Both the position numbers and the translations under genes were made by a program. A stretch of DNA of 32,000 bases from contig NZ_CP042911.1 in assembly GCF_008065095.1 (NCBI RefSeq), forward strand, positions 8,490,001 to 8,522,000, given 5' to 3'. Positions within the stretch are counted from its first letter, which is position 1. Each line of letters begins with the position of its first letter. Origin of the DNA: Gemmata obscuriglobus (GTDB lineage: Bacteria > Planctomycetota > Planctomycetia > Gemmatales > Gemmataceae). A model generated the notes under the pieces. That model was not told the origin of the DNA. It made no database searches and saw only the letters and a list, made by a program, of their open reading frames with translations. Positions 9,231 to 22,391 of the stretch are shown here, one piece after another.

Positions 9231-10691
9231 GGTGCCCCTCTGGATTTTGGCCCGTTATTGGTTTTCCCAAAACCCCTTCCACTCCGGCCCCGCTGCTAAT
9301 GCCCCCAGTTCGACAAACGGTGCCACATGCCCCAGATTCCATCTCGCCCCAGTTTGTTTCATTCTGATGTTGAGCAATTGCTTAACCGTTCCCTCCACCA
9401 ACCCGCTTCCAATCGACTGCCCCCGCCGCAAACGCACCGCATAATTCAACCGCCCCTGTTGGCCACAAAAGTAATTCAATACGCCGCCCAAGGCGGCTCC
9501 GTCGCCTCCGGCGGGCATCTGCCCGGTCAGTTCTCCGATCCAGTCCACCAACCCGGGATATCCGTCTTCCAGCAGCTTCGACTTGCCCCGGACAAACGCC
9601 GTCGCGGCTTGGACCCCGGGACCGAACACCGCCTTCGCCCCGCTGGCGAGGTACTCCGCCCCATGCCAGAAGTCGAGGACCTGGGTCGCGTCACGGAAGT
9701 GCTGCTCGGACACGTTCCACAACCACTCGGCCCCATCCCCCAGTACCGTCATTTGGCTCGAATCGGTCCACTCCAGTCGCGTGGCCTCGTCGTGACACCG
9801 CTTCCCGAACAGGCTCGCCTCCTCCACGGCCGCGATCACCGACCGCGCCAACGGGGTTGGCAGGTCGCGTCCCTCCCAGTCCATCGCCGTGGTCGGCGCA
9901 CTTCGCTCGCGCCGGGCAAAAACGGCCATCTTGAGATCCCGCCAACCGTCCTCCACAGTGTTGACCTTGCCCGCGTCGATGTGCAACTCGCTGTCCACCG
10001 GCCGCTCGGTCCTGGCCGCGGCTTGGGCTCGGGTGAAGACTTCAGCGGTCGAGCGGTGTTGCCGGGTGGCGGTGGCCTGGGCCGCCGTGGCGTGGCAGAG
10101 TTGCCGGATGGTGTTGTCGTCCAATTCCCAGCCGACCACCTCGGCCAGAGTCACTTCGGCTTTGGCGAAGGACTGTTGGACGCCCAGCAAGACGGCCATC
10201 CGACAGGCGCCCGGGGTGACGTAGCCGCTGAGGCCCAGCCCGCGATCGGCTCCGAACTCGCCTTGCCCGCAAGTGGGGCAGTGGAAATACCTCCGCTCCA
10301 GCTCAATCGGACCAACGGCGGTCACAACCGTTCGGGTGTGCGGTCCTTTGGAGCGCCCGGGGTGCGTCTTCGCGCAGGTGCGGGCGCGCCCCCTTTTTGC
10401 TCGTCCTTCTCGATCCGTGAACCCAAGGCGGCACCGAGTGTGGTCCGCAACAGTTTGCGCCCTTGATCGAGTGCATGCTTCTCGCAGGCGGCCAGGACCG
10501 TGCCGTCGGGAGCTTCTTGGGCCAGACGATTCAGGTCCGTGAAATAGCCCAGCAGTTGTTCCAAGGCCAACCGTTCGGATTCGGTACTGTATTCTATAGT
10601 CAGCGTCGGCATCAGTATCCCTCCCAGATTGCCACGGCTTCCCCAGCCGGCTCCCATACCGTTCACAAATGCCAAAATCCAGAGGGGCACC
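9231..10691 (-). mobile_element. ISKra4-family insertion sequence (about 1.46 kb)
   Basis: Perfect 21-bp terminal inverted repeats: ggtgcccctctggattttggc (9231-9251) and its exact reverse complement gccaaaatccagaggggcacc (10671-10691). The transposase stop codon lies 4 nt from the inner edge of the left repeat. Confidence 0.85.
9255..10612 (-). pseudogene. ISKra4-family transposase, two overlapping frames joined by a -1 shift at an A5G5 run
   Basis: N-terminal frame from ATG 10612 (GGGAGG 7 nt upstream): MPTLTIEYSTESERLALEQLL...SRIEKDEQKGG.., stopping at 10322. The -1 frame continues ..KRGRARTCAKTHPGRSKGPHTRTVVTAVGPIELERRYFHCPTCGQGE...VLGDGAEWLWN...LDFWHGAEYL...GQSIGSGLVEGTVKQLLNIRMKQTGARW.. 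to the stop at 9255. These motif blocks are typical of ISKra4 transposases. The frames switch at caaaaaggggg (minus strand; plus-strand C5T5 at 10389-10398). Confidence 0.8.
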
Positions 10692-11004
10692 CCTCTCGTA
10701 ACCCTGCACCGCACCCGAAAAGGACTAAAGTCCCGGTGGTGATGCTACAGACTCAGTTTTTGCTGCGAATTGGGGGCGCCGGCAGCCCGCGTTTCCGTTT
10801 TAACCCTCACCCGGATGATATCCGCTCCTCCGCTCGTAATCCGCGGCGGGTCGTGCCGGTCGTAAGCCCTTACGGTTTACCCAGATTCAGCGTGTTCTCA
10901 TTTCTTCCGGAGTAAAATCGGTTACGCTCGAAACACCTCCGACACACCACAGGTAACGATCCCCACCCGCCAACGGATTCGTGTGGGCGGAGGTAGGTAT
11001 CACT

Positions 11005-12774
11005 ATGCAACTACTTCAGACCCTCGTTCACCGCGGCCTGCTCCCCGAGGGCGACCGGTTCCGCGCCAGCGAAGCGATCAAAGCCAGCCCCGACTACCCG
11101 CCCCACCAGGTCCTGATCGACAAGGGCTTCGTTCGCGAGGACGCGCTCCTGCCGGTCCTGGCCGAGGAGTTCGGCCTCGAACAGGTGGACCTGTCCCACG
11201 CGAAGATCGAAAAGGACGTGCTCGCGGCCATGCCGCAGAAGCTGGTCCACCGCAAGAACCTGATGCCGGTCGCGCGGCACAACGGCACCCTGATCGTCGC
11301 CACCAGCGACCCGTTCGACGTGTACGCGCTCGACGAGCTGCAGACGCTCACCGGGCTCCACGTGATGCCGGTGCTGGCCCCGGCCCGCGAGATCACCCGC
11401 CTCATCAAGCAGCACTTCGGGGTCGGCGGCGACACCGTCGCGGCGCTCGCCGAGGAGGCCAAGAACCAGGACGACATCGAGCTGCTCGAGGCGCTCGAGA
11501 CCGACGACTCCGAGATGGCGAAGGCCGCCCAGGAGGCGTCGGTCGTCAAGCTCGTGAACCAGATCCTCGTGGAGGCGGCGAACGAGCGCGCCTCCGACAT
11601 CCACGTCGAGACGGAAGAGAAGGGCATCCGCATCCGCTACCGGATCGACGGGCTGCTGCAGAACCAGAACCTGCCGCCGGAGATCAACCGGTTCGCGCTG
11701 GCGATCGTGAGCCGCCTGAAGATCATGGCGCGACTCAACATCGCCGAGAAGCGGCTCCCGCAGGACGGCCGCATCAAGATGAAGGTGCAGGGCCGCGAGA
11801 TCGACGTCCGCGTGTCCATCATCCCGATGATCCACGGCGAGGGGATCGTCATGCGGCTGCTCGACAAGGGCCGCATGTCGTTCAACCTCAAGAACTGCGG
11901 GATGCTGCCGGACATCTACGGGAAGTTCAAGCAGGTCATCGACCGGCCCCACGGGATCGTCCTCGTCACCGGCCCCACCGGGTCCGGGAAGTCCACGACC
12001 CTCTACTCCGCGCTCAACGAGATCAAGGACGAGGTCACCAAGATCATCACGGTCGAGGACCCCGTCGAGTACAACCAGGACGGCATCTCCCAGATCCAGA
12101 CGCACGCGAAGATCGGGCTCACGTTCAGCCACGCGCTGCGCTCGATCCTGCGGCACGACCCGGACGTGATCCTGGTGGGCGAGATCCGCGACAAGGAGAC
12201 CGCCGAGATGGCGATCCAGGCGTCGCTCACCGGCCACATGGTGTTCAGCACGCTGCACACCAACGACGCGCCCAGCGCGTTCACCCGCATGATCGACATG
12301 GGCGTCGAGCCGTTCCTCGTGTCCTCGACGGTGGAAGGGGTGATGGCCCAGCGGCTGGTGCGGACCATCTGCCCGGACTGCAAGACCACCTACGTGCCCG
12401 ACCCGGACGAGCTGCCGCTGGACTTCCCCGGCCGCAAGGGCGCCCCGCAGCCGGCCCCGGACATCGCGATCCAGCAAGGGCTGGTGGAGATGATGAACAC
12501 CGGCCCGGCGGCCGACGGGAAGCTGTGGAAGGGGACGGGGTGCCGCGCGTGCCGCCAGGGCGGGTACCGAGGCCGGACCGGCATCCACGAGCTGCTGCTC
12601 AACAACGACGTGATGAAGGAGCTGGTGGTCCAGCGGGTGAACTCGAGCGTCATCCGCCTGGAGGCGCTCAAGGCCGGGATGATCACGCTCCGCCAGGACG
12701 GGTGGCGCAAGGTGCTCAACGGCACCACCACCGTCGACGAGGTGACCCGCACCACCGCGGGCGACATCTCATAA
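11005..12774 (+). CDS. gspE: Type II secretion / type IV pilus assembly ATPase (GspE/PilB family)
   Basis: 589 aa. ATG 11005 is preceded by GGAGGT. N-terminal GspE_N/MshEN-type domain, Walker A VTGPTGSGKSTT, Asp/His boxes (ILVGEIRD, TGHMVFSTLHTND) and a tetracysteine motif CPDC..CRAC followed by GYRGRTGIHELL. Confidence 0.95.
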   Translation: MQLLQTLVHRGLLPEGDRFRASEAIKASPDYPPHQVLIDKGFVREDALLPVLAEEFGLEQVDLSHAKIEKDVLAAMPQKLVHRKNLMPVARHNGTLIVATSDPFDVYALDELQTLTGLHVMPVLAPAREITRLIKQHFGVGGDTVAALAEEAKNQDDIELLEALETDDSEMAKAAQEASVVKLVNQILVEAANERASDIHVETEEKGIRIRYRIDGLLQNQNLPPEINRFALAIVSRLKIMARLNIAEKRLPQDGRIKMKVQGREIDVRVSIIPMIHGEGIVMRLLDKGRMSFNLKNCGMLPDIYGKFKQVIDRPHGIVLVTGPTGSGKSTTLYSALNEIKDEVTKIITVEDPVEYNQDGISQIQTHAKIGLTFSHALRSILRHDPDVILVGEIRDKETAEMAIQASLTGHMVFSTLHTNDAPSAFTRMIDMGVEPFLVSSTVEGVMAQRLVRTICPDCKTTYVPDPDELPLDFPGRKGAPQPAPDIAIQQGLVEMMNTGPAADGKLWKGTGCRACRQGGYRGRTGIHELLLNNDVMKELVVQRVNSSVIRLEALKAGMITLRQDGWRKVLNGTTTVDEVTRTTAGDIS

Positions 12775-12897
12775 TTCGGAACGCGGAGTTCGGAATTCGG
12801 AGTGAGAACACGCGCCGAGTTTCGCGTTTCGCAATCAGCCTGTACGCGGCTTGGGACTTTGTTTTCGTTCCGCACTCCGAACTCCGCATTCCGAATT
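12773..12897. repeat. Intergenic palindromic element built from 7-nt periodic TTCGGA-type units (between gspE and gspF)
   Basis: The left arm aattcggaacgcggagttcgga[attcgga]gtg (12773-12804) pairs with the right arm cactccgaactccgcattccgaatt (12873-12897). The match is 21/22 plus gtg/cac, with a 7-nt bulge that is one extra repeat unit and a spacer of about 68 nt. The left arm starts inside the gspE stop codon. The right arm ends 6 nt before the gspF ATG. Confidence 0.8.
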
Positions 12898-12903
12898 CGC
12901 GCT

Positions 12904-14115
12904 ATGCCTGACTTCACCTACGAAGCGCTCGCCCGGACCGGGGCCAAGTCCACCGGGACGCTCACCGCCAACAGCGAGCGCGAGGCGGCGCTGATCCTCG
13001 ACGGCCGCGGGCTGTTCCCGCTCAAGATCAACCTGGCCAAGAACCAGGCGGCCAGCGCCGGCGGGTTCTTCGCGGGGGTCAGCGGGCGCCAGGTGGCGAC
13101 CATGTACGCCCAGCTCGCCGACCTGCTGCACTCCGGCGTGCCGCTGCTCCGGTCGCTGGAGCTGCTCGAGCGCCAGAGCACCAACAAGTTGCTTCAGTCC
13201 GTGCTGCGCGACGTGCGCGCCCGGGTGGCCGACGGCACCGGGCTGGCGCAGTCGATGGCCGCGCACCCCAAGGTGTTCAACGAGCTGGCCGTCAGCATGG
13301 TCCGCGCCGGCCAGGAGGGCGGGTTCCTCGAGGACGTGCTCAAGCGCATCGCCGCGTTCGTCGAGCACCAGGAGGACCTGAAATCGAAGGTGGTCGGCGC
13401 GATGGCGTACCCGGTGTTCCTGGCGCTGGCCGGGGCCGGCGTCGTCGCCGTGCTGATGGTGTTTTTCGTGCCCAAATTCGAACCCATCTTCGAGAAGCTC
13501 AAGGAAAAGGACCAGATGCCCGACATCACGTCCCTGCTGCTGGACGTGAGCCACTTCATCCAGGGCTACTGGTGGCTGGTGCTGCTCGCGGTCGGCGGCG
13601 CCGCGCTCGCGTTCCGGTGGTGGTCGCGGACGCCCGACGGGCGCATGCTCCTGGACCGGATCAAGATCCGGCTCCCGCTGTTCGGCCCGGTGTTCATGGG
13701 GCTGGCCCTGTCCCGGTTCTGTCGCATCCTGGGGACCATGCTGCACAACGGCATCCCGCTGCTGAAGTCGCTGACCATCGCCAAGGACTCGACCGGCAAC
13801 AAGCTGCTGTCCGCGTCCATCGAGAAGGCGGCCGAGAACGTGACCGCCGGGCAGAAGCTGGCCGACCCGCTCCGCAAGAGCGGACACTTCCCCAACGACC
13901 TCGTCGAGATGATCACGATCGCCGAGGAGGCGAACACCCTCGAAAAGGTGCTGGTGGACGTGGCCGACGGCCTGGACAAGCGGACCGCCCGGAACCTGGA
14001 GCTCATGGTGAAGCTGCTCGAGCCGCTGATGCTCCTGTGCATGGCCGCGGTGGTGGGCACCATCGCGGTGGCGCTGCTGATGCCGGTGTTCAAGCTGAGC
14101 AACACCCTGGACTGA
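12904..14115 (+). CDS. gspF: Type II secretion system inner-membrane platform protein (GspF/PilC family)
   Basis: 403 aa starting MPDFTYEALARTGAKSTGTLTANSEREAALILDGRGLFP. Two T2SSF-type repeats and 3 TM segments, with typical length and position after gspE. The ORF-track start at 12802 would translate the palindromic repeat and is rejected. Confidence 0.93.
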   Translation: MPDFTYEALARTGAKSTGTLTANSEREAALILDGRGLFPLKINLAKNQAASAGGFFAGVSGRQVATMYAQLADLLHSGVPLLRSLELLERQSTNKLLQSVLRDVRARVADGTGLAQSMAAHPKVFNELAVSMVRAGQEGGFLEDVLKRIAAFVEHQEDLKSKVVGAMAYPVFLALAGAGVVAVLMVFFVPKFEPIFEKLKEKDQMPDITSLLLDVSHFIQGYWWLVLLAVGGAALAFRWWSRTPDGRMLLDRIKIRLPLFGPVFMGLALSRFCRILGTMLHNGIPLLKSLTIAKDSTGNKLLSASIEKAAENVTAGQKLADPLRKSGHFPNDLVEMITIAEEANTLEKVLVDVADGLDKRTARNLELMVKLLEPLMLLCMAAVVGTIAVALLMPVFKLSNTLD

Positions 14116-14135
14116 GCCGCTCGTACAATCGCCAC

Positions 14136-14172
14136 GAGAAGGCGCGGGCGGGTGCCCCGCCCGCGCCTTCTC
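14136..14172 (+). promoter_or_regulatory. Perfect 17-bp GC-rich stem-loop between gspF and the major pseudopilin gene
   Basis: gagaaggcgcgggcggg (14136-14152), loop tgc, cccgcccgcgccttctc (14156-14172). There is no T-tract after it. A TATACT hexamer lies at 14198-14203, 37 nt before the ORF start at 14240. Confidence 0.6.
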
Positions 14173-14239
14173 ATGGCGGGTTAACCGTCCCGCGGGATAT
14201 ACTGACTGTAGGCCGCAAGCCGCCGTCCGCTCCTACCGA

Positions 14240-14719
14240 ATGAGGTTCCGACCCATGCTGCTGACCACGACCCGCCGCCCCTCGCCGGCCCGCCGCCGCG
14301 AGGCGTTCACCCTGATCGAAGTCCTGGTGGTCGTCGCGATCCTCGTGATCCTGGCCACCATCGCCGCGGTCGCCGTGCCGAAGCAAATGATGGAAGCCAA
14401 GAAGGGCACCGCCATCACCGGGTGCGCCACCATCTCGAAGGCCGTTGACCTGTACAGCACGAGCGTGTCCAACCCGGGCACCTCGGACGACGAGCGGCTC
14501 CCGCAGAACCTGGAAGCCCTGGCGAACCCGGGGTGGTCCTCGTCGTTCCTGCCGGACGGGGAGCGGAGCCTCATCGACCCGTGGGGCAACCGCTATCAGG
14601 CCATGAACGCGGTCAAGGACGACGGCATCACGCCGTACATCCTCGTGTACACGACCGCCCCGGACGGGACGAAGATCAGCCAGTTCGGGGCTGGCGCGAA
14701 GTCCCGCGTGAACCAGTAA
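14240..14719 (+). CDS. gspG: Major pseudopilin (GspG-like), prepilin-type N-terminal methylation domain
   Basis: The N-terminus ..RRREAFTLIEVLVVVAILVILATIAAVAVP is a class III signal/methylation motif with Glu at +5. The DPWGNRY motif is typical of GspG. An alternative start at ATG 14255 is possible. Confidence 0.88.
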   Translation: MRFRPMLLTTTRRPSPARRREAFTLIEVLVVVAILVILATIAAVAVPKQMMEAKKGTAITGCATISKAVDLYSTSVSNPGTSDDERLPQNLEALANPGWSSSFLPDGERSLIDPWGNRYQAMNAVKDDGITPYILVYTTAPDGTKISQFGAGAKSRVNQ

Positions 14720-14749
14720 CCTGCCCCGGTACCCTGAGGAGCGGTTGCC

Positions 14750-15295
14750 GTGACCACCCGCACCGCCCGCCGCCGCGGCTTCACGCTGCTCGAAGTGCTG
14801 CTCGTCATGGCGGTGCTCATCCTGCTGGCCGCCGTCATCCTGCCGGGCATGAACACGGTCCGCGGGGACTCCCGGCAGTACGCCGCGGTGGACGCGATCC
14901 GGACCGAACTGGGGGCCGCCCGGTCGCGGGCCGCACTCGAGAACCGCCCGTACCGGCTCGCCATTGACGCGGCCGGCAACCGGCTCCGCCGCGCCCCGGA
15001 CGGGGACGACTTCGCCGGCGCTGCGGCGACCGACCACCCGGACGGGGCCTCGGTCGCCGTGGACTTCGAGTTCGAGCGGGCGACCGCCGAAATCCTCTCC
15101 GACCCGTCCTCGTCGGTCTCTCCGGACGGCTGGCAGACGATCGCCGTCGTGCTGCCGGCGGGCACCTGCCTGGACGACACCCTCACAATCGGCGTGCGGG
15201 ACCGCGACAACCCCAACGCGGTGGTCCGGGTGAACATCCGCGGGCTGAACGCCACCGCACGCATCGTGACCGCCGCCCCGGAGAACCGGAAATGA
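14750..15295 (+). CDS. gspH: Minor pseudopilin, GspH-like
   Basis: GTG start with GAGGAG 8 nt upstream. MTTRTARRRGFTLLEVLLVMAVLILLAAV prepilin motif (G|FTLLE). 181 aa. The position after gspG matches the canonical order. The H assignment rests mainly on position and size. Confidence 0.75.
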   Translation: MTTRTARRRGFTLLEVLLVMAVLILLAAVILPGMNTVRGDSRQYAAVDAIRTELGAARSRAALENRPYRLAIDAAGNRLRRAPDGDDFAGAAATDHPDGASVAVDFEFERATAEILSDPSSSVSPDGWQTIAVVLPAGTCLDDTLTIGVRDRDNPNAVVRVNIRGLNATARIVTAAPENRK

Positions 15296-15753
15296 TTCGC
15301 CGCCCCGCCCCGCGCCCCGGGCTGTCGCTGATCGAGGTGCTGCTGGCGCTGGCGATTCTGATGTTCGCGCTGGCCGCGGTCAACCGGCTCGTGGAGGTGG
15401 GGTCGCAGCACGGGGACTACGCCCGCGCGTCCACCCGCGGCGCCAGGCTGGCGCAGAGCAAAATGGCCGAAGTCGAGGCCGGAACGGTTCCGCTCGACAG
15501 CCCCGCGACGGGGCAGTTCGAGAACGACGACGCCGGCTGGGCCTACGCGGTGACGCCGGAAGCGGCCGGCCCGCCCAACCTGTACAAGGTCACCGTCAAG
15601 GTGTCCCGCACCATAAGCGGACAATCGTTCGATGTCGTGCTCACGCAGATGATTTTCGACCCGGCCATGACCGGCTCCTCGGCCCAGGCCGAGCGCCCGC
15701 CGGCCGAAGAGCCCGCCGACACCAGTTCGACCACGACCGGAGGAACCCCGTGA
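15292..15753 (+). CDS. gspI: Minor pseudopilin, GspI-like
   Basis: ATGA overlap with the gspH-like stop. RPGLSLIEVLLALAILMFALAAV prepilin motif, followed by LAQSKMAEVEAG. Small size (153 aa) and position support the call. Confidence 0.75.
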   Translation: MIRRPAPRPGLSLIEVLLALAILMFALAAVNRLVEVGSQHGDYARASTRGARLAQSKMAEVEAGTVPLDSPATGQFENDDAGWAYAVTPEAAGPPNLYKVTVKVSRTISGQSFDVVLTQMIFDPAMTGSSAQAERPPAEEPADTSSTTTGGTP

Positions 15754-17234
15754 TGCTGCTGACCGTGCCGGCGGGTGTGAAATGCCGGGCCGCGCGCCGC
15801 TCCGGGTTCACGCTGCTCGAACTGCTGCTGGCCGCCGTTCTCGCGGCGGCGCTGCTCACCGCCTTGTACATGGCCATGTCGGTGACCGTCCGCCAGACCC
15901 AGGTGAGCCGCGACGCGAGCGACGTGGAGCACCTGTACCGGGGCGTGTTCAACAAGTTCTCGACGGACCTGAGCGGCACGCTGGCCCCCCTCCCGCCCAA
16001 GTCCGGCGGGAACGCCGCGCCGGGCGGCGGAACGGTCCTGACCGCAACAGACACCGGCTCGACGGCGTCGGCAACCGGTGCTACCGGAACCGGCGGCACC
16101 GGTTCTACCGGTTCGGCAACCGGTGCCGCCGGGGCGACAACTACAACTGGCTCCACGGGCACTGGGACCGACACCTCAACGCCCAGTACGACCGATACTG
16201 CAACGGCGGTCGAAGCTAGCCCCTCGTTCCAGGGCGGCGTGGTCGGGACCGACAAACAGTTGACGGTTTATGCCGGTCGGACCCCGGAGTCGTACACGCG
16301 GTTCGGAGATTCGGGCGATCAGGCCCGGAGCGACCAGCGGCAGATCGTTTACTGGATCGGGGAGGGCGGCGGGCTGTACCGGCGCGAGCGCCCGTGGATC
16401 ACCGGCGACACGCTCAACGACGACCCCGACCCGTCGGCCCCGGACGCGGTTCTGCTGGCCGAAGAGGTTGTGGACCTGACGTTCGAGTACACCGACGGCT
16501 CGGGCACCTGGGAAACCGAGTGGGACGGCGCGACCCCCGGCCCGGACGGGGTAACGCCCCTGGGGCCGCCCCGCGCGATCAAAGTGACGCTCACGATGCG
16601 CATCCCGCTGAGCAAGAACGAGGTCGTGGAGAAGACCGTGACGCACGTGATCGCGGTCCGCGCGGCGCCCGGCACCTACACGGTCCCACTCGTCGAGGCG
16701 CCAGTTGATGGTGCCACCGGCGTTACCGACAGCGGCACGACCGGCAGCACGACCGACGGTAGTGGCGCGACGGCTGGCGGTGCGACCGGGGGCACTGGCG
16801 GCGGTATGGGTGGTGCAGGCGGCGGCCGTGGCGGTGCGGCCGGTGGTGGGGGTGGTGCGGGTGGTGGCGGGATGGGTGGAGGTGCCGGGCGTGGCGGGGC
16901 CGGTGGTGAAATGGGCGGCGGAGGTGGAGGCGGTGGCGGCCGTGGTGGCGCGGCAGGCGGTGCGGGTGGAGGTGGCGGTGGAATGGGTGGAGGCGGTGGC
17001 CGTGGTGGTGCGACCGGCGGTGGAGGCGGCGCGGGTGGAGGAGGACGTGGTGGCGCGGCCGGTGGTGGAGGCGGTGCGGGCGGCGGTGGAATGGGTGCCG
17101 GCGGTGGCGGTGGCGGCCGCGGTGGCGCAACCGGTGGCGGTGGTGCCGGCGGCGGCGGTGGCGGGCGCGGGGGGGCTGCGACTGGTGGCGGTGGCGGTGG
17201 CGGTGGGCGTGGCGGAGCCGGAGGCGGGCGATGA
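15750..17234 (+). CDS. gspJ: Minor pseudopilin, GspJ-like, with internal Thr/Gly-rich insert and a C-terminal Gly-rich RGG/GGM tail of about 150 aa
   Basis: GTGATG overlap with the gspI-like stop, and GGAGGA upstream. RRSGFTLLELLLAAVLAAALLTALY prepilin motif. The globular part ..IVYWIGEGGGLYRRERPW...VVDLTFEYTDGSG.W...PRAIKVTLTM.. is GspJ/PulJ-like. The ORF then stays open through the GGN tract to a TGA that overlaps the gspK ATG (ATGA at 17231). Confidence 0.8.
   Translation: MMLLTVPAGVKCRAARRSGFTLLELLLAAVLAAALLTALYMAMSVTVRQTQVSRDASDVEHLYRGVFNKFSTDLSGTLAPLPPKSGGNAAPGGGTVLTATDTGSTASATGATGTGGTGSTGSATGAAGATTTTGSTGTGTDTSTPSTTDTATAVEASPSFQGGVVGTDKQLTVYAGRTPESYTRFGDSGDQARSDQRQIVYWIGEGGGLYRRERPWITGDTLNDDPDPSAPDAVLLAEEVVDLTFEYTDGSGTWETEWDGATPGPDGVTPLGPPRAIKVTLTMRIPLSKNEVVEKTVTHVIAVRAAPGTYTVPLVEAPVDGATGVTDSGTTGSTTDGSGATAGGATGGTGGGMGGAGGGRGGAAGGGGGAGGGGMGGGAGRGGAGGEMGGGGGGGGGRGGAAGGAGGGGGGMGGGGGRGGATGGGGGAGGGGRGGAAGGGGGAGGGGMGAGGGGGGRGGATGGGGAGGGGGGRGGAATGGGGGGGGRGGAGGGR
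16770..17231 (+). repeat. Degenerate GGN-codon low-complexity tract (coding, extreme G-richness on the + strand)
   Basis: About 460 nt consisting almost entirely of ggc/ggt/ggg/gga/gcg codons. Eight Arg codons in ggNcgNgg context and five atg codons are spread at irregular spacings of 39-108 nt. The antisense frames give poly-Pro. Confidence 0.9.
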
Positions 17235-18877
17235 AACTGCACACACGAAGTGCGGAACGCGATGCGCGTCCCGGGTACGTCATTTTTGCCGTCCTCGTGG
17301 TGGTGGTGGTGCTGTCCCTCGTCGCGTACCGGTTCGCCGACGCGATGAGCGGGGAGTACCGGGCCGGCGCCCGAGCCGGCGAAGACGCCCAGGCGAAGTC
17401 GGCGGCGCTGTCCGGGTTGCACTACGCCGCCGCGGTCCTTTCGGACCGTGAGACGCTCAGTAGTGAGTTGGGCGGGAACCCGTTCGACAATCCCGACATT
17501 TTCGAGCGCTTCGAAATAACGGCCGGGGGCGACGGCCCCGCACGCAAGACGGCGTACTTCGACATCCGGTGCGTGGCCACGACCGCCAGCGGCACCCGCG
17601 AGCAGCGGTTCGGGGTCATTGATGAGGGCGGGAAGCTCAACATCAACAGCCTGATCGCGCTCGACCCTACCGGCGAGGTGCTCTACAACGCGCTGCTGAA
17701 GATCCCCAACATGACGCCCGAGATCGCCGACGCCATCGTCGACTGGGTGGACGCCGACGACACGAAACGCGCCAGCGGGGCCGAATCCGCCGAGTACGGT
17801 TCCCGCTCGAACCCGTACAAGGCGAAGAACGGGCCGCTGAACTCGCTCGACGAACTGCTGCTGGTTCAGGGGATCACCCCGGACCTGCTGTACGGCGGGG
17901 ACCGGAACCGCAACGGCGTGTACGACGACGGGGACGACAGCCAGGACGGCGGGTGGGCCGATTACCTCACCGTATACGGGCGCGAGCTGAACGTCGCGTC
18001 CGACGGGCAGGTGCGGACGTACCTCAACGGCGACAACCTCACGACGCTCCAGCAGCAACTGGGGCCGCAGTTGGGGGACGAACTGACCGCTTACGTGCTC
18101 GCGTCGAAGCTGTTCACCGTGACCGCGGCCAGCACGAGTACACGCGTGACACTCAGCGGCACGAACGCGACCTCGGGCGCAACGGTTCGCCTGAACGCGA
18201 CCGTTCAGACGGGCGGGAATACGGGGAGTACGTCCCAGCGGGCCAAGCGGGCCGCGACGCTCGACGAGTTGCAGGCCGCGGTGTCGACGAAGATGGCGAA
18301 CACGTTTACCGGCGGGAACCGGGTGAAATCGCTGCTGGACCTCGTGGACACCAGCATCACCCTGCCCCGGGCCGCGGACGCGAAGGACGAAGACCCGGAC
18401 GTGGTCGCGTACTCGCCGCTGAGCGACGCCACCAAACGCGCGACCCTGCTCGCGACCCTGATGGACCGCACCACCACCAAGCAGGCGGTCGAGTTGGTGC
18501 CGCGGATCAACGTGAACACGGCGCCGCGCGAGGTGCTGATGGCGATCCCCGGCATGACCGACGCCGACGCGGACGCGATCATCACGGCGCGAGCGAGCGT
18601 GCTGCCGGGCGACCCGGCGTACCAGTCGGCCGCCTGGGTAATCACGTCCGCCGGGATCACGCCCGCGATGTTCAAGGCGTACGAGAAGTACATCACCGGC
18701 AGCACGATGGTCTACCGGGTGCAGTCGATCGGGTACTTCCTGGAGGGCGGCCCGGTGGCCCGGATGGAGGCGGTGGTCGATACGAACCAGGGGGCCCCGC
18801 GGTTCCTGTTCGTTCGCGACCTCACGGACCTCGACAGCCCGCGCGGGTTCGATCCCGCGAAAGTGACGAAGCCATGA
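17231..18877 (+). CDS. gspK: Minor pseudopilin GspK (T2SS K family)
   Basis: 548 aa. Hydrophobic N-terminus GYVIFAVLVVVVVLSL without Glu+5, as expected for GspK. Motifs VIDEGGKLNINSL, ADAIVDWVDADD, NGPLNSLDELLLVQGITPDL and RINVNTAPREVLMAIPGMTDADADAIITAR. Confidence 0.9.
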   Translation: MKLHTRSAERDARPGYVIFAVLVVVVVLSLVAYRFADAMSGEYRAGARAGEDAQAKSAALSGLHYAAAVLSDRETLSSELGGNPFDNPDIFERFEITAGGDGPARKTAYFDIRCVATTASGTREQRFGVIDEGGKLNINSLIALDPTGEVLYNALLKIPNMTPEIADAIVDWVDADDTKRASGAESAEYGSRSNPYKAKNGPLNSLDELLLVQGITPDLLYGGDRNRNGVYDDGDDSQDGGWADYLTVYGRELNVASDGQVRTYLNGDNLTTLQQQLGPQLGDELTAYVLASKLFTVTAASTSTRVTLSGTNATSGATVRLNATVQTGGNTGSTSQRAKRAATLDELQAAVSTKMANTFTGGNRVKSLLDLVDTSITLPRAADAKDEDPDVVAYSPLSDATKRATLLATLMDRTTTKQAVELVPRINVNTAPREVLMAIPGMTDADADAIITARASVLPGDPAYQSAAWVITSAGITPAMFKAYEKYITGSTMVYRVQSIGYFLEGGPVARMEAVVDTNQGAPRFLFVRDLTDLDSPRGFDPAKVTKP

Positions 18878-18987
18878 CGTGTTTCGGGATCGGGGCCGAG
18901 TGCCCGCCGTGCCGCGAAAGCCGGCGCACCCGCTAAACGCGGAACGCCAAATACTGAACATCCAAACGCCAAACACCCAGACGCCAA

Positions 18988-20571
18988 GTGTCCAACTTCA
19001 TCGCGATCGATCTGGAAGCGGGCGGCGTGTACGCCGTATCTGGGGGCACCCGCGGCGGCGCGAAAGTGCTCCACGCGCTCGCCTGGACCAACACGGACGA
19101 GGAACCGCCGCCGCCGCTGTCGGCCGAAACCGCGAAGTCGTTCGGCGAGGCCCTCCGCGCGAAGCTCAAGGACGCCGGTATCGCGCCCGCGCCGGTGCTC
19201 GTATCGGTCGGCCGCGACCGGGTCATCCTCAAGGAACTCCGGCACCCGCCGGTGCCGCCGGCAGACGAGCCCGCGGTCATCCGGTTCCAGGCCGTCAAGG
19301 AGATGTCCGAGTCCCCGGACGACGTGGTCCTCGACTACGTGCCGATTGGGGATACGAGCGCCGGGGCGGGCGAGCGGCGCGCGATGGCCGTGATGCTCCG
19401 CAAGGACGTGCTCAACGCGATTACGGCGATGACCACCGCCGCGGGGCTGAAGTTGGCCGGCGCCACCCCGCGCCCGTATGCCGTCGCGGCGGGGCTGGGC
19501 CGGGCGTTCGCGCTCGGCGCAGCGCCCGCGCCGGAGCAGAAAACGGACACGGTTGCGGCGCTCACGCTCGGCCCGGGCGGGGGCGAGTTCACGGTGGTCC
19601 GCGGCGGCGAGATGGTGCTGACGCTCGCGATCCCGGCGCCGGTGATGGTCAGCGAGGCAATGCTGGTGGCGCAACTGCGGCGCAACCTCACCGTCTACGC
19701 GGGCCAGCACCCCGGGCACCCGATCACGGCCGTGTACCTCGCCGAGGTCGGCCCGGGCTGGGCCGGGCGGCTCGAGACCGCGCTGGGCGTGCCGGTTCAC
19801 GACTACGATCCGCTCGCCGGGGCGGTGCCGAAGGTTCCGGAGCACCTCCGCGGGCGGTTCGCCGGCGCCGTCGGGCTGCTCGCGGCCAAGGCCCACGCCG
19901 CCGACCTGCCGATCAACTTCGCCTCGCCCCGCCAGCCGCGGACCACCGGCGACCCCGGGAAGCGCCGGCTCCTGTTCGCCGCGCTCGCGGCCGTCCTGCT
20001 GGTGGGCGGGAGCCTCGCCGTCGGGGTGCTGCTCCGGGACTGGGCCGTCGGCGGGGTGGAGGCACTCGCCGCCGAGCGGGACGAGCTGAAAGGGCGGATC
20101 GAGAAGGGGGCCGCCGGCGCGAAGCAGGCCGACGCGATCGACGCGTGGACCAAGCGCCGGGTCGTGTACCTGGACGAGCTGCACGACCTCGCGGACCGGA
20201 TGCCCGGCGACGACAGCATCCGGGTCACCGAAATCAAGTCCACCCCGGGCCAGATCACGAAGGACGGCAAGCAGCCCGTTCAAGCGAACGTGGAGCTGCG
20301 GGTCGCCGCGGTCGCCGGGCCGCCGGTCCACGACCTGGTGTCCGCGTTCGAGAACGACAACCCGCGCCCGGAGGCGGGCAAGGTGGTCAACAAGTACTAC
20401 ATCGGCACCAACCCCACCGGCGGCGGCGCTCTGACCAGCTCCGGTTCGAGCAAGCACACGCAAGGGTTCACGGTGAAGACCCAGGTGAACTACCGCGAGC
20501 CGAACAAGTACGACCGTGCGCCGAAGTTCACCCCGCCGAAACGGAGCTGGGGGCTGCCCGCGTCCCAGTGA
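18988..20571 (+). CDS. GspL-like assembly-platform protein (PilM-like cytoplasmic domain fused to a PilN-like TM/periplasmic part)
   Basis: GTG start. The N-terminus FIAIDLEAGGVYAVSG... resembles the actin-like PilM/GspL cytoplasmic domain. DLPINFASPRQPR, followed by the TM helix RLLFAALAAVLLVGGSLAVGVLL and a coiled coil, resembles the PilN/GspL C-terminus. It sits directly after gspK. Confidence 0.7.
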   Translation: MSNFIAIDLEAGGVYAVSGGTRGGAKVLHALAWTNTDEEPPPPLSAETAKSFGEALRAKLKDAGIAPAPVLVSVGRDRVILKELRHPPVPPADEPAVIRFQAVKEMSESPDDVVLDYVPIGDTSAGAGERRAMAVMLRKDVLNAITAMTTAAGLKLAGATPRPYAVAAGLGRAFALGAAPAPEQKTDTVAALTLGPGGGEFTVVRGGEMVLTLAIPAPVMVSEAMLVAQLRRNLTVYAGQHPGHPITAVYLAEVGPGWAGRLETALGVPVHDYDPLAGAVPKVPEHLRGRFAGAVGLLAAKAHAADLPINFASPRQPRTTGDPGKRRLLFAALAAVLLVGGSLAVGVLLRDWAVGGVEALAAERDELKGRIEKGAAGAKQADAIDAWTKRRVVYLDELHDLADRMPGDDSIRVTEIKSTPGQITKDGKQPVQANVELRVAAVAGPPVHDLVSAFENDNPRPEAGKVVNKYYIGTNPTGGGALTSSGSSKHTQGFTVKTQVNYREPNKYDRAPKFTPPKRSWGLPASQ

Positions 20572-20669
20572 CGACAGCGCGCCGCACCGCCGACACCAAA
20601 AAACAACACGCCCGGACCGCCAGCCGGATCGGGTGAGACGCACCGAACCACCGCGAAGAAGGCCGACCG

Positions 20670-22391
20670 ATGACCCCGCGCGACCAAAAGATGGCCCTCC
20701 TGCTGATCGGCGCCACGGCCCTGATCGTGGGGATACTCGGCGGCTACTTTTTCGTGTACGATCCGATCCTGAAGGGGCGGGCCGCGGAGGCCGAGCTGCA
20801 AGGCGAAATTGCGGAACTCCGCGAAAAAGCCGACCAGCAGGACGCCAAGCTCAAAATGCTCAAGGTCCAGCAGGTCCAGAGCCTGCCGGCCGATCAGACC
20901 ATCGCCAAGCAGGAGTACTTCGTCGCGCTGGAGTCGCTGATCGGTCGGGCGATCCACACCGCCGAGGAGGCGGGCGTGCCCAGGGGCGAGATCAAAGCCG
21001 CGATCAACGTGAAGGCGGTGGACAACAGCGCTCGCGGCGTGCCCGAGCTGTCCAAGGGCAAGCCGATGTACACCAAGTTGGCCTACACGGTGGTGGTTCG
21101 GAAGGCCGACATGTGGGTGGTGCGCGACGTCCTTAAGGCGTACTACGAGCTTAACCTGCTGCACCAGATCACCCACTTCAACCTGAAAAAGGACGACGAG
21201 AACGCGAAAGGGCCGGTGAAGCGCAACGACCTGACGCTCGAGTTCACCACGGAAGCGATCATCGTGGAGGGGATGACGACCGGACCCCAGTACCGGCGCA
21301 CGCTGATCGCGGTGCCCAGCGCGTTCGCCGCGGCCGGCGGCGGCGGGCTGCAACAGGTGCTGGAACGCAACACCGAAATCGGGCGCGGGGCGTCGGCCCG
21401 GCCGTCCCTGCCGGTGCTCGCCACCAAGCCCCGCGACTACAGCCTGATCGTGCTCAAGGACCCGTTCAACGGCCCGCTCCCGCCGCCGCCGCCGTTCTCG
21501 CTGGAACCGGTCAAAGATGTGACCGTCAAGCAGAACGACACCCGGGCGGCAACGGTGAAGCTGGCGGCGAAGGGCGAAGGGGCGGCGGGCGCCACGTACC
21601 GGATGATCGTGTCGAACGTGTCCGGCCAGCCGTTGCCCGAGGGCGAGATCAAGGGGCGGGGGCCGACGTTCGAACTGCCCAAGACTTCCGCGGGTGAGGG
21701 AACGGCAAAGGTCGAGGTGATCGCCAAATCCGCCGAAGGCAAAGAGGCCCGGACCACGTTCCGGGTGAAGGTGGAGCCGGAACCGGAGACCCCAATAGTC
21801 ACGCCGCCGATCAAAGACGACGTGTCACACGCGATCATCCTGACCATGCTCACGATCCGTCACGAGGACGGCACCGCGTCCGCCGCGATCCGCGACGGGG
21901 CCAACCGGCAGCGGTATGAGATCGAGATCGAGGGCAAGAAGGTTACCGTCGGTAAGTTCTACTACATCAAGGACAAGAAGAAGGAAGATGAGGTCGACAA
22001 GAGCGGGGTGCTGCTGATTTCGGACGACAGCAGCGGGACCAAACGCACCTTCAAGGTGATCGGGGTGGACGGCGAGGGGCTGATCCTGGAAGACCTGAAG
22101 CCGAGCGGTGACGCGCCGAAGACCGAGGCCCCGCGACCGCGCGGACCGGGTGGGCCACGCGGCGCGACGCCCCCGAAGCAGGGGCCGGCGAACCCGGTGG
22201 CGGCAATGGGCGGGAACATGGCGTCCGGGGCCGGGATCGTCGCCAGCGCACCGAAACTCTACCGCTGGACCGTCGGGCAGTCGCTCTACACGATGACCAA
22301 GGATGGACCGCTGAGCGAGCGGGACGCACAGAAGGTCCTCAAGCAGGCGGCCGACAGCGGCCCGATGCTCGAAATTGCCGTGAACCAGTAA
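20670..22391 (+). CDS. Enlarged GspM/PilO-like bitopic membrane protein with extra periplasmic domains
   Basis: 573 aa. N-terminal TM (MALLLIGATALIVGILGGYFFVY), then a coiled coil (AAEAELQGEIAELREKADQQDAKLKMLK) and an alpha/beta region, as in PilO/GspM. Next come a PPPPPP linker, a beta-rich (Ig-like?) segment, a Lys/Glu-rich beta segment (RYEIEIEGKKVTVGKFYYI..KRTFKVIGVDGEGLILEDL) and a Pro/Gly linker. The domain calls are inferred from sequence patterns only. Confidence 0.6.
   Translation: MTPRDQKMALLLIGATALIVGILGGYFFVYDPILKGRAAEAELQGEIAELREKADQQDAKLKMLKVQQVQSLPADQTIAKQEYFVALESLIGRAIHTAEEAGVPRGEIKAAINVKAVDNSARGVPELSKGKPMYTKLAYTVVVRKADMWVVRDVLKAYYELNLLHQITHFNLKKDDENAKGPVKRNDLTLEFTTEAIIVEGMTTGPQYRRTLIAVPSAFAAAGGGGLQQVLERNTEIGRGASARPSLPVLATKPRDYSLIVLKDPFNGPLPPPPPFSLEPVKDVTVKQNDTRAATVKLAAKGEGAAGATYRMIVSNVSGQPLPEGEIKGRGPTFELPKTSAGEGTAKVEVIAKSAEGKEARTTFRVKVEPEPETPIVTPPIKDDVSHAIILTMLTIRHEDGTASAAIRDGANRQRYEIEIEGKKVTVGKFYYIKDKKKEDEVDKSGVLLISDDSSGTKRTFKVIGVDGEGLILEDLKPSGDAPKTEAPRPRGPGGPRGATPPKQGPANPVAAMGGNMASGAGIVASAPKLYRWTVGQSLYTMTKDGPLSERDAQKVLKQAADSGPMLEIAVNQ

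What the first reader, a model, noticed from the sequence alone, without database searches (positions are those of the whole stretch)
16770..17234. GspJ-like minor pseudopilin carries a basic glycine-rich RGG/GGM tail of about 150 aa
Seen: after a normal-looking pseudopilin body (prepilin motif GFTLLELL, globular part ending ..AIKVTLTMRIPLSKNEVVEKTVTHVIAVRAAPG), the same frame stays open for about 150 more codons. These are almost only Gly with Ala. They contain eight GGRGGA-type boxes, five GG(G/E)MGG boxes and a single acidic residue, and the protein ends ..GGGRGGAGGGR. The stop codon overlaps the gspK start (ATGA), so the tract lies inside a translationally coupled gene rather than in a spacer. 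Established: GspI-J-K form the tip of the pseudopilus, and typical GspJ proteins are about 200-230 aa with no such tail. RGG/RG-rich glycine tracts are best known as flexible nucleic-acid- or polyanion-binding modules in eukaryotes. Inference: a flexible polycationic extension at or near the pseudopilus tip could bind anionic polymers (DNA, polysaccharide, cell-wall material) or plug and gate a channel. I do not recognise this architecture as described.
Basis: partly seen in the sequence, partly recalled or inferred. Interest (0 to 1): 0.7.

Follow-up and report, generated by a model that had tools for sequence, protein, structure and literature searches.

The report
Glycine-rich disordered tail on planctomycete GspJ
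A secretion-machine tip protein (GspJ) of a Gemmata-like planctomycete really carries a 152-residue floppy glycine tail dotted with arginines. The tail is an extreme form of a tail found across its bacterial family and not described in the literature I could search, and its function is still unknown.

Summary
ORF 15750-17234 (494 aa) is a GspJ-type minor pseudopilin. It has the prepilin motif and reaches the Pfam T2SSJ threshold. Its AlphaFold body matches XcpW/GspJ in Foldseek.

Residues 343-494 (nt 16776-17231) are 73% Gly. They hold 8 RGGA boxes, 5 GGxMG boxes and one Glu. The stop codon overlaps the gspK start (ATGA). An independent assembly carries the same tract.

The tail is not a one-off. 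Nearly all Gemmataceae GspJ orthologues carry a 40-245 aa low-complexity tail. These tails are G/S/T/P-rich, have one K/R about every 15 residues, almost no D/E, and end in GGG[RK]. The wider planctomycetal family has tails of about 17 aa, and the other phyla sampled mostly have none.

The conserved C-terminus is dual-coded with the gspK Shine-Dalgarno sequence and start codon. The internal R boxes look like in-frame duplicates of that terminal box.

Composition and codon choice look selected, so the tail is most likely translated and constrained. It is predicted to be disordered.

It fails the eukaryotic RGG-motif spacing criterion and lacks the FimT GRxR motif. Polyanion binding therefore remains an inference.

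Verdict: an undescribed variant of a known protein, of moderate interest.

The parts
15750..17234 (+). gspJ-like minor pseudopilin gene, 494 aa including the tail. The alternative start ATG at 15753 gives 493 aa.
   Evidence: ORF list. Pfam T2SSJ 28.5 bits against a cut-off of 28, plus N_methyl. The AF2 body matches XcpW in Foldseek at E 3.5e-6.
15795..15869 (+). Class III (prepilin) signal: leader, G19|F20 cleavage site, E24, and the start of the hydrophobic alpha-1 helix.
   Evidence: Pfam N_methyl aa 16-40. TIGR02532 above its cut-off. The sequence reads RSGFTLLELLLAAVL.
16005..16223 (+). Internal low-complexity insert, aa 86-158. It is T/A/S/G-rich and acidic (4 D/E, 0 K/R).
   Evidence: pLDDT below 50. 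Across 93 family members the insert has K+R 0.2% and D+E 7%.
16224..16673 (+). GspJ beta-sheet globular domain, aa 159-308.
   Evidence: pLDDT 81-97, with strands E164-302. Foldseek hits are XcpW chains 6utu, 5bw0 and 3nje.
16674..16775 (+). Proximal linker, aa 309-342 (TYTVPLVEAPVDGATG...). Its first ~17 residues are conserved in Gemmataceae. Net charge -4.
   Evidence: Consensus TYTPxxxxxxTDGxT in A1. Homologue tails. Charge.
16776..17231 (+). Distal Gly-rich tail, aa 343-494. It consists of nine R-terminated units of 7-24 aa (GGA[A/T]GG...GGGR), five of them with an internal Met. Net charge +8.
   Evidence: Sequence. Composition and units. pLDDT 38-49 in the full model and 42 when folded alone.
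17208..17234 (+). Terminal box CGT GGC GGA GCC GGA GGC GGG CGA TGA (RGGAGGGR*). It is dual-coded with the gspK Shine-Dalgarno sequence (GGAGG, 17220-17224) and start codon (ATG, 17231-17233).
   Evidence: The same peptide and near-identical DNA occur in lineages only about 45% identical in the body (L067, L069). In 16 of 18 Gemmataceae junctions (14 orthologue loci and the window among them) the gene ends in a G-rich SD-like run, an NNA codon (13 CGA or AAA, one CAA) and TGA.
17231..18877 (+). gspK-like minor pseudopilin gene, translationally coupled to gspJ by the ATGA overlap.
   Evidence: Pfam T2SSK_1st 1.7e-18, T2SSK and HHH_3. NF037980 101 bits, below its cut-off of 130.
15292..15753 (+). 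gspI-like gene. Its C-terminus TTTGGTP is likewise dual-coded with the gspJ SD (GGAGGA) and the GTGA/TGATG overlap.
   Evidence: Pfam T2SSI and TIGR01707. Junction sequence.
10981..15295 (+). Upstream operon genes: gspE (10981-12774), gspF (12802-14115), gspG (14240-14719) and gspH-like (14750-15295).
   Evidence: Pfam T2SSE 1.2e-135, T2SSF 5.8e-55, T2SSG and N_methyl.
18988..22391 (+). Downstream operon genes: a PilM/GspL-like 527-aa protein (18988-20571) and an unannotated 573-aa protein (20670-22391).
   Evidence: Weak PilM_2 and Amuc_1101-family hits; no family found for the 573-aa protein. The same gene order occurs in L066, L067 and L069.

Best explanation
The tract is a real, translated, intrinsically disordered C-terminal extension of the GspJ minor pseudopilin of a divergent T2SS-like operon in a Gemmata-like planctomycete. 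It is the Gly/Ala/Arg/Met-rich extreme of a tail that nearly all Gemmataceae GspJ proteins carry.

Origin (inferred from sequence patterns). The ancestral short S/T/G tail ends in Gly codons that double as the ribosome-binding site of the overlapping gspK gene. In Gemmataceae this 3' box (RGGAGGGR*) was duplicated in frame many times. That gave an array of short units, each with one basic residue.

Constraint (shown). Selection keeps the array in frame, free of acidic, hydrophobic and Cys residues, sparsely basic, and encoded without long G runs.

Mechanism (inferred, not shown). The tail acts as a long flexible, weakly cationic tether. Its contour length is about 50-65 nm and its coil radius a few nm. 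It sits on an otherwise strongly acidic pseudopilus tip (GspI -4, GspJ body -17, GspK -15). It would make multivalent, low-affinity electrostatic contacts with the acidic tip itself or with anionic envelope or substrate polymers, and would occupy space around the tip or in the secretin vestibule. It would not be a sequence-specific binding domain.
For: Identity of the protein:
- Pfam T2SSJ and N_methyl hits.
- The AF2 body has pLDDT above 90, and the top 8 Foldseek hits are all XcpW/GspJ.
- The gene sits in gspG-H-I-J-K order with gspE and gspF upstream.

The tract is real:
- An independent assembly is identical in length.
- P0071 was seen with the same sequence on 11 contigs from several sequencing runs.

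The tail is family-wide:
- Tails of 40-245 aa occur in most of the 104 homologues, with the same operon context and the same 4-nt J/K overlap.
- The wider family (942 representatives at E<=1e-30) has a median tail of 17 aa.

Selection on composition:
- The non-Gly residues are only A, R, T, M and E. V, D, S and C are absent, although they make up 56% of the one-step neighbours of the Gly codons.
- Against G. algarum, 66% of conserved tail residues differ in codon. That is about the level expected for unrelated Gly codons, yet Gly identity is kept.
- In the same 93 proteins the internal insert has 0.2% K+R and 7% D+E, while the tail has 4.5% K+R and 1.1% D+E.

Codon choice:
- The tail uses GGT 41% and GGA 13%, against 5% each in neighbouring genes.
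- This gives a longest G run of 7 and one G4 motif. Recoding with the genomic usage gives means of 12.6 and 6.6.

Duplication origin:
- All 8 internal R boxes read G-R-G-G-A, like the terminal box, and mostly use the rare CGT codon.
- All DNA self-matches in the tract are spaced by multiples of 3.

Disorder: pLDDT is below 50 both in the full model and when the tail is folded alone.

Charges.
Against: - No experiment shows that the tail is present in the mature protein.
- The composition tests overstate independence, because the units are duplicates.
- Concerted evolution of repeats could preserve composition without protein-level selection.
- Frame maintenance could be selected only to keep gspK coupled.
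- The composition varies widely between lineages (Gly 8-68%, S/T 0-64%), which argues against any specific binding chemistry.
- No partner has been identified.
- No secretin gene lies in the window.
Confidence: 0.55

Rival explanations
1. Near-neutral by-product. The (GGN)n tract is slippage or duplication debris seeded at the Gly-coded gspK ribosome-binding site. It is tolerated because a disordered tail does no harm. It stays in frame only because frameshifts would uncouple gspK or read into it. It has no function of its own.
For: - The terminal box is constrained at the DNA level by the gspK SD and start codon.
- Length and composition vary enormously between lineages, and Gly-rich versions arose several times.
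- The alternative frames of (GGN)n contain no stops, so frameshifts would be deleterious for gspK.
- The wider family functions with tails of about 17 aa.
Against: - D, E, S, V and C are excluded despite saturated synonymous change.
- The charge polarity is opposite to that of the internal low-complexity insert in the same proteins.
- Long tails are retained across essentially the whole Gemmataceae clade.
- Codon choice avoids G runs.
- In about 250 kb of Gemmataceae sequence, Gly-rich tracts are almost confined to gspJ.
Confidence: 0.25
2. The tail is a dedicated polycationic RGG-type module that binds nucleic acid or anionic polysaccharide at the filament tip, by analogy with the Arg-rich flexible tail of the DNA-binding minor pilin FimT.
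For: - The tail has net charge +8, is free of acidic residues and is flexible.
- FimT binds DNA through arginines in a flexible C-terminal tail (PMC8897410).
- Pili-like fibres of Gemmata bind dextran, and the uptake mechanism is unknown (PMC5394234).
Against: - Arg density is low, at one per about 17 residues.
- There is no di- or tri-RGG motif and no GRxR motif.
- Orthologues use K or fewer charges and S/T/P instead of Gly.
- The protein is a GspJ, not a GspH/FimT-family pilin.
- No retraction ATPase or competence gene lies in the window.
- Dextran is uncharged.
Confidence: 0.12
3. Structured polyglycine-II domain. The Gly tract folds into a PGII helix bundle or sandwich, as proposed for mycobacterial PGRS domains, the snow-flea antifreeze protein and phage gp38 adhesins. 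It would form a compact tip module.
For: - The tract is 73% Gly with small residues.
- The Gly/Met tails of GroEL populate PPII conformations.
Against: - AF2 gives pLDDT of about 42 and pTM 0.11 for the tail alone, and pLDDT below 50 in the MSA model.
- There is no regular GGX/GXX triplet register, and unit lengths vary from 7 to 24 aa.
- Orthologous tails are S/T/P-rich.
Confidence: 0.05
4. Artefact or non-protein signal. Either a sequencing or assembly error hides a stop codon, or the tract matters only as mRNA, for example as an array of SD-like sites or a G-quadruplex tuning gspK translation.
For: - G-rich repeats are error-prone.
- The tract contains 10 GGAGG motifs.
Against: - An independent assembly is identical.
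- Orthologues in more than 60 genomes or contigs keep the frame open up to the J/K overlap.
- The GGAGG count equals the codon-shuffle expectation (10 versus 9.95), and the motif is depleted in G. algarum.
- G4 motifs are avoided.
- There is no Rfam hit.
Confidence: 0.03

Closest known systems
Canonical T2SS minor pseudopilin GspJ (XcpW in P. aeruginosa, EpsJ in Vibrio; PDB 6utu, 5bw0, 3nje, 3cfi)
   Same: It shares the prepilin signal, the long alpha-1 helix, the two-sheet beta domain and the position between gspI and gspK. It presumably has the same role in the I-J-K tip complex.
   Different: Canonical proteins are about 190-230 aa and end with the beta domain. This one has a 73-aa acidic insert and a 186-aa post-domain extension, 152 aa of it Gly-rich. 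It scores below the NCBIfam GspJ equivalog cut-off (19.9 versus 64.85 bits).
FimT, the DNA-binding type IV minor pilin of Legionella and Acinetobacter (PMC8897410)
   Same: Both are minor pilins whose flexible, Arg-containing C-terminal tail is exposed on the filament. FimT is the best precedent for a tail-mediated polyanion contact.
   Different: The FimT tail is about 13 residues with clustered arginines and a GRxR motif. FimT belongs to the GspH/FimT fold and works in a retractile competence pilus. The tail here is 152 residues, has one Arg per ~17 residues, has no GRxR motif, and sits on a GspJ fold in a T2SS-like operon.
GroEL/Hsp60 C-terminal (GGM)n tails (bioRxiv 10.1101/2024.05.27.596059)
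   Same: Both are bacterial Gly/Met-rich, flexible C-terminal tails that project into a confined chamber. Short-tailed relatives of this GspJ end in TTGGM, and this tail contains five GGxMG boxes.
   Different: GroEL has a contiguous 13-residue GGM repeat on a chaperonin. Here the Met residues are isolated in a much longer Gly/Ala/Arg tract on a pseudopilin.
Eukaryotic RGG/RG (GAR) motifs, as in FUS, nucleolin and fibrillarin
   Same: Both have Arg flanked by Gly in a disordered, Gly-rich context.
   Different: The RGG boxes here are 11-21 residues apart instead of 0-4. Charge density is roughly 3-5 times lower. The location is periplasmic or extracellular, and no methylation or RNA context is known.
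Mycobacterial PE_PGRS proteins (PGRS domain)
   Same: Both are long Gly-Ala-rich repeat tracts in a high-GC bacterium, are surface or envelope associated, vary in length, and evolve by in-frame repeat turnover.
   Different: There is no PE domain and no GGA/GGN triplet regularity. The tract here is Arg/Met punctuated, occurs as a single gene per operon rather than a multigene family, and is attached to a pilin fold.
Modular type IV pilins (S. sanguinis PilB/PilC, CofB, ComZ; PMC8179133)
   Same: The concept is the same: an extra C-terminal module grafted onto a tip-located minor pilin to add a function.
   Different: Those modules are folded domains (vWA, lectin, beta-solenoid). That survey calls GspI and GspJ non-modular. 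Here the graft is a low-complexity disordered tail.

Membership tests
GspJ (T2SS minor pseudopilin J) | Class III signal peptide: G|F-T-L-x-E with Glu at +5 and a hydrophobic alpha-1N helix | tested here: met
   The sequence reads RSG|FTLLELLLAAVL. Pfam N_methyl scores 22.7 bits against a cut-off of 21.2, and TIGR02532 scores 18.9 against 16.3.
GspJ (T2SS minor pseudopilin J) | T2SSJ domain at or above the curated threshold | tested here: inconclusive
   Pfam PF11612 scores 28.5 bits against a cut-off of 28.0 and just passes. The NCBIfam TIGR01711 equivalog scores 19.9 against 64.85 and fails. A PDB profile search gives EpsJ/XcpW only at E 0.3-0.9.
GspJ (T2SS minor pseudopilin J) | GspJ three-dimensional fold | tested here: met
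   The AF2 body has pLDDT above 90. The top 8 Foldseek hits are all XcpW chains, with E 3.5e-6 to 3.5e-4, probability 1.00 and TM (target) 0.46-0.55.
GspJ (T2SS minor pseudopilin J) | Gene neighbourhood gspG-H-I-J-K with the GspE ATPase and the GspF platform | tested here: met
   The same order occurs in L066, L067 and L069.
GspJ (T2SS minor pseudopilin J) | Forms the GspI-J-K tip complex and supports secretin-dependent secretion | not testable with these tools
   No multimer modelling or experiment was possible. No secretin, gspC or gspO gene lies in the window.
RGG/RG motif proteins | Two or three RGG (or RG) boxes separated by 0-4 residues (definition recalled from the literature) | tested here: not met
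   The regex RGG.{0,4}RGG finds none. The 8 RGG boxes are separated by 11-21 residues.
FimT-type DNA-binding minor pilin | GspH/FimT fold with a conserved C-terminal GRxR motif or clustered arginines | tested here: not met
   The fold is GspJ. The regex GR.R finds none. FimT features were taken from PMC8897410.
GroEL-like GGM tail | Contiguous (GGM)n repeat at the extreme C-terminus | tested here: not met
   There are five isolated GGxMG boxes in 152 aa, and the C-terminus is GGGR. Short-tailed relatives do end in TTGGM.
Polyglycine-II bundle domains (PGRS, sfAFP, gp38) | Regular GGX/GXX register that folds into a confident PGII bundle | tested here: not met
   The tail alone gives pLDDT 42.4 and pTM 0.11, and in context pLDDT is below 50. 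Unit lengths are irregular, from 7 to 24 aa.
Gemmataceae long-tailed GspJ (group defined here) | After the ...VRAAPG end of the domain come three parts: a conserved TYTPPLLEAPTDGA linker; at least 40 aa of low-complexity, non-acidic tail with K/R about every 15 residues; and a terminal GGG[RK] overlapping the gspK start | tested here: met
   The window has TYTVPLVEAPVDGA, a 152-aa tail, R spacing of 7-24 residues, the terminus GGGR and the ATGA overlap.

The most novel reading that the evidence does not exclude
The long, sparsely cationic tail is a functional 'fishing line' or soft piston head at the tip of a planctomycete-specific type IV filament. On this reading it captures or sweeps macromolecules (polysaccharide, DNA, protein) into or out of the greatly enlarged Gemmata periplasm, or it acts as a length-setting tape along the pseudopilus. 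The basic residues are about 15 aa apart, roughly 4.6 nm when extended, which is close to one pseudopilus helical turn (pitch recalled from the literature, not checked here). That would make gspJ tail length a genetic handle on the still uncharacterised planctomycetal macromolecule-uptake and crateriform-fibre system.
Probability: 0.1. Interest if true: 0.8.

Novelty: new variant of a known kind. Interest (0 to 1): 0.45.

Why it matters
GspI-J-K tip complexes are regarded as compact, and a published survey of modular pilins calls GspI and GspJ 'non-modular'. A clade-wide disordered extension of 40-245 residues on GspJ shows that the pseudopilus tip can carry a large flexible appendage. Gly-rich analogues occur in some Verrucomicrobia.

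The finding also gives a concrete example of how a ribosome-binding site embedded in the 3' end of an upstream gene can seed a coding repeat expansion.

Type II secretion and type IV filament biology in Planctomycetota is almost unstudied. A 2025 review of the phylum does not mention it, and the mechanism by which Gemmata fibres bind and import macromolecules is open. The tail is therefore a cheap, specific target for deletion or swap experiments. If it proves to be near-neutral, it is still a clean case study of constrained low-complexity evolution.

Tried and rejected
1. Assembly artefact or wrong frame. An independent assembly is identical. The frame is conserved in orthologues. The other long ORFs over the tract (16676-18976 on the minus strand, poly-Pro; 16705-17451 on the plus strand) are mirror or shifted readings of (GGN)n, without the codon-position GC profile of the neighbouring genes.

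2. Tail composition driven by genomic GC. There is no correlation across 15 loci (Spearman rho 0.12-0.22, p>0.4).

3. The tract as an array of SD-like sites. The GGAGG count equals the expectation from shuffling the Gly codons, and the motif is depleted in G. algarum.

4. G-quadruplex or RNA element. G4 motifs are avoided and Rfam finds nothing.

5. A folded PGII domain. AF2 gives no confident structure.

6. The tail as a portable module found on other proteins. A tail-only search of 5.8 billion proteins returned nothing at E<=0.001. The likely cause is HMMER's low-complexity correction, so the result is uninformative. A scan of about 250 kb of Gemmataceae loci found Gly-rich tracts almost only in gspJ.

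7. A hypermutable contingency locus. There are no perfect repeats and within-tract identity is at most 71%. Identical alleles occur across samples.

8. Literature searches for a prior description found nothing relevant: Gemmata with pseudopilin; Planctomycetes with T2SS and GspJ; minor pseudopilin with glycine-rich; pseudopilin with disordered.
Full report
**1. The observation**

ORF 15750-17234 on the + strand encodes 494 aa. It starts with a prepilin signal (RSG|FTLLELL), has a body ending ...THVIAVRAAPG at residue 308, and then stays open for 186 more codons.

The last 152 codons (aa 343-494, nt 16776-17231) encode G 111, A 21, R 9, T 5, M 5 and E 1. They contain eight RGGA boxes and five GG[G/E]MG[G/A] boxes, and the protein ends GGGRGGAGGGR. 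The final CGA codon overlaps the gspK start as cgATGA, with GGAGG six bases upstream.

A Logan assembly of run SRR5887558 is 99.99% identical over 11.3 kb and has the same tract length. Its single mismatch falls in the tail, G347 versus R. I cannot tell whether that run also gave rise to the window's own assembly.

**2. What the protein is**

- Pfam gives T2SSJ (28.5 bits against a cut-off of 28) and N_methyl.
- The NCBIfam GspJ equivalog cut-off is not reached.
- A PDB sequence-profile search finds EpsJ/XcpW only weakly.
- An AlphaFold2 model built on 93 sequences has pLDDT above 90 for the alpha-1 helix (aa 22-80) and the beta domain (aa 160-305). Its eight best Foldseek matches in the PDB are all XcpW, the P. 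aeruginosa GspJ (E 3.5e-6, probability 1.0).
- The gene lies in the operon gspE-F-G-H-I-J-K, followed by a PilM-like gene and a gene for a 573-aa protein of unknown family.

It is therefore a divergent but genuine GspJ-type minor pseudopilin. Two segments are modelled as disordered (pLDDT below 50): a 73-aa insert at aa 86-158, and everything after about residue 320. The tail folded alone gives pLDDT 42 and pTM 0.11.

**3. Relatives**

The body retrieves 104 proteins, all annotated or placed in Gemmataceae: Gemmata, Frigoriglobus and Fimbriiglobus.

After the ...VRAAPG anchor almost all of them have three parts:
- a conserved linker, TYTPPLLEAPTDGA;
- a low-complexity tail of 40-245 aa;
- a C-terminus GGG[RK].

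Tail composition varies widely (Gly 8-68%, S+T 0-64%, P 0-25%). Three properties are constant:
- Acidic residues are almost absent (D+E 1.1%).
- Hydrophobic residues are almost absent.
- There is one K or R about every 15 residues (median 15, IQR 9-20). It is typically preceded by GG, with G at position -2 in 92% of cases for R and 71% for K. Met makes up about 1.7%.

The closest named species, G. algarum JC673 (GspK 84% identical), has an even longer tail of the same G/A/R/M type.

Very Gly-rich, R-type tails also occur in lineages only 45-47% identical in the body: P0055, P0060, P0071 and P0119. These are interspersed with short-tailed relatives on a neighbour-joining tree, so this type arose more than once.

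A profile search of 1.84 billion representatives finds 942 family members at E<=1e-30. Among the best 150 the median tail is 17 aa, and 72 of the 84 that could be anchored have 30 aa or fewer. Long tails are therefore a Gemmataceae speciality.

GspJ next to GspK in Nitrospira, Cellvibrio, Casimicrobiaceae and others has no tail. Some Verrucomicrobia do have one: Luteolibacter carries ...GGGGRGPGGGGGGGGRGPGGGG..., and an Akkermansiaceae genome carries GGGG/TTP tracts ending in KP.

**4. The conserved C-terminus is dual-coded**

- In the window and 14 of the 17 orthologue loci whose junction could be read, the gene ends in a G-rich SD-like run (GGAGG in many), an NNA codon and TGA. The NNA codon is CGA or AAA in 13 loci and CAA in one. 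The Gly codons thus form the gspK Shine-Dalgarno sequence, and the obligatory NNA codon before TGA supplies the A of the gspK ATG.
- One further locus has TAA followed by ATG.
- The two short-tailed loci end ...GGGGGGATG TGATG or TAG.
- Lineages as distant as the window, P0055 and P0071 share the identical peptide RGGAGGGR* and nearly identical DNA.
- The same logic holds at the gspI/gspJ junction...ACCGGAGGAACCCCGTGATG, where GspI ends TTGGTP.
- All eight internal Arg boxes of the window read G-R-G-G-A, like the terminal box, and six use the rare CGT codon.
- All DNA self-matches in the tract are spaced by multiples of three, and none exceeds 71% identity. TRF finds diverged periods of 45-48 nt.

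I infer that the tail grew by old, in-frame duplications of the 3' terminal box.

**5. Is the tail merely tolerated, or constrained?**

Several observations argue for constraint at the protein level.

(a) The one-step mutational neighbours of the tail's Gly codons should be 56% S, C, D or V. None of these occurs among the 31 one-step residues (A 21, R 9, E 1). Under equal, independent rates the probability is about 1e-11, which is overstated because the units are duplicates.

(b) Third positions are T- and A-rich (GC3 0.52 against 0.85-0.95 in neighbouring genes), so GC pressure cannot explain the G/C-only first and second positions.

(c) Against G. algarum, 66% of identical residues in the tail use a different codon. 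This is roughly the random expectation, and compares with 25% in the beta domain. Gly is nevertheless retained.

(d) In the same 93 proteins the internal insert has 0.2% K+R and 7% D+E, while the tail has 4.5% K+R and 1.1% D+E. These are two low-complexity regions with the same mutational background and opposite charge.

(e) Gly codon choice in the tail is GGT 41%, GGA 13% and GGG 9%, against 5%, 5% and 40% in neighbouring genes. This keeps the longest G run at 7 and the number of G4 motifs at 1. Recoding with the genomic usage gives means of 12.6 and 6.6 (minima 8 and 3) in 500 trials.

(f) In about 250 kb of Gemmataceae sequence, Gly-rich tracts of 40 aa or more are almost confined to gspJ.

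Tail composition does not track locus GC. GGAGG motifs are not enriched beyond what the codon usage predicts.

**6. How it may work (inference)**

The distal tail carries +8. The rest of the tip is strongly acidic: GspI -4; GspJ helix 0, insert -4, beta domain -9 and linker -4; GspK -15. The tail is about 50-65 nm long when extended, and as a coil its radius is a few nm, comparable with a secretin vestibule (my estimate from polymer scaling).

The most parsimonious reading is a flexible, multivalent, weakly basic tether. It would make transient electrostatic contacts with the acidic tip or with anionic envelope or substrate polymers, and would occupy volume around the tip. Nothing here shows binding.

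The RGG analogy is weak. No two RGG boxes lie within 4 residues of each other, there is no GRxR motif as in FimT, and orthologues swap R for K and G for S/T/P. The GroEL GGM tail is a second partial analogue.

A near-neutral by-product, kept in frame only for the sake of gspK coupling, remains a serious rival. I give it about 0.25.

**7. Novelty**

No paper in the searchable library describes such a tail. A survey of modular pilins calls GspI and GspJ non-modular. A 2025 review of Planctomycetota does not mention type II secretion, pilins or secretins. Database records call these proteins only 'prepilin-type N-terminal cleavage/methylation domain-containing protein' or GspJ.

Boedeker et al. 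showed that pili-like fibres of G. obscuriglobus bind dextran, and that macromolecules reach the periplasm by an unknown route. A link to this tail is pure speculation, but it is testable.

**8. Verdict**

The feature is real and conserved within a family. It looks compositionally constrained and is not described in the literature I could search. It is a new variant of a known protein, a minor pseudopilin with a long disordered tail, and not a new kind of system. Interest is moderate, at 0.45.

Noticed in passing
window 16005-16223 (GspJ aa 86-158): A second low-complexity segment lies inside the same protein, between the alpha-1 helix and the beta domain. It is T/A/S/G-rich and acidic, and is conserved across the planctomycetal family with essentially no K or R (0.2%). 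Its charge is the opposite of the C-terminal tail's.
   Followed up: partly
window 15736-15756 (gspI/gspJ junction): GspI ends TTGGTP. Its last codons (ACC GGA GGA ACC CCG TGA) carry the gspJ SD (GGAGGA) and the GTGA/TGATG start overlap. This is the same dual-coding principle as at the gspJ/gspK junction.
   Followed up: yes
window 16788: The only difference between the window and the Logan contig SRR5887558_422 over 11.3 kb lies inside the tail: G347 (GGG) in the window versus R (AGG) in the contig.
   Followed up: yes
window 10981-22391: The T2SS-like operon gspE-F-G-H-I-J-K, PilM-like gene and 573-aa unknown gene has no secretin, gspC or prepilin peptidase gene within the window. All NCBIfam equivalog cut-offs (GspG, H, I, J, K) are missed. 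The PilM-like protein weakly resembles the Akkermansia Amuc_1101 family (E 0.004).
   Followed up: partly
window 8030-10709: Transposase-like genes lie directly upstream of gspE: DDE_Tnp_1 at 8030-8785 on the + strand, and a UPF0236-like gene at 9255-10709 on the - strand. GC dips to 0.62-0.63 here, against about 0.70 elsewhere.
   Followed up: no
L049 4781-5722 (Luteolibacter MAG); L050 4862-5713 (Akkermansiaceae MAG): Verrucomicrobial GspJ homologues also end in Gly-rich tails. Luteolibacter has ...GGGGGPGGGGGQGGGGRGPGGGGGGGGRGPGGGG...PRN, and the Akkermansiaceae genome has GGGGTTPGGGGG...GGGGGGKP. The phenomenon may therefore be wider within the PVC superphylum.
   Followed up: partly
L004 4677-6001 (Gemmata sp. 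IIL30): The gspJ orthologue is split into two overlapping ORFs, with a frameshift in the low-complexity insert region. This is either a pseudogene or an assembly error.
   Followed up: no
L048 and L051 (Vreelandella utahensis): This gammaproteobacterial GspJ carries a short acidic Gly/Asp/Asn/Glu tail (...GSGDNGDTGDNENGEDDE). Its charge sign is opposite to that of the planctomycetal tails.
   Followed up: no
window 3762-6263 (-) and 25904-30904 (+): Two large neighbouring genes encode an 833-aa DUF11/CARDB repeat protein and a 1666-aa TPR-containing protein. No link to the pseudopilin operon was established.
   Followed up: no
L004 12426-12572: This is the only other basic Gly-rich tract seen in the Gemmataceae loci (RGGGWGGGGNWGGGDPRWGGGPGGGG...). 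It lies in a 728-aa ORF about 6 kb downstream of gspK in Gemmata sp. IIL30.
   Followed up: no
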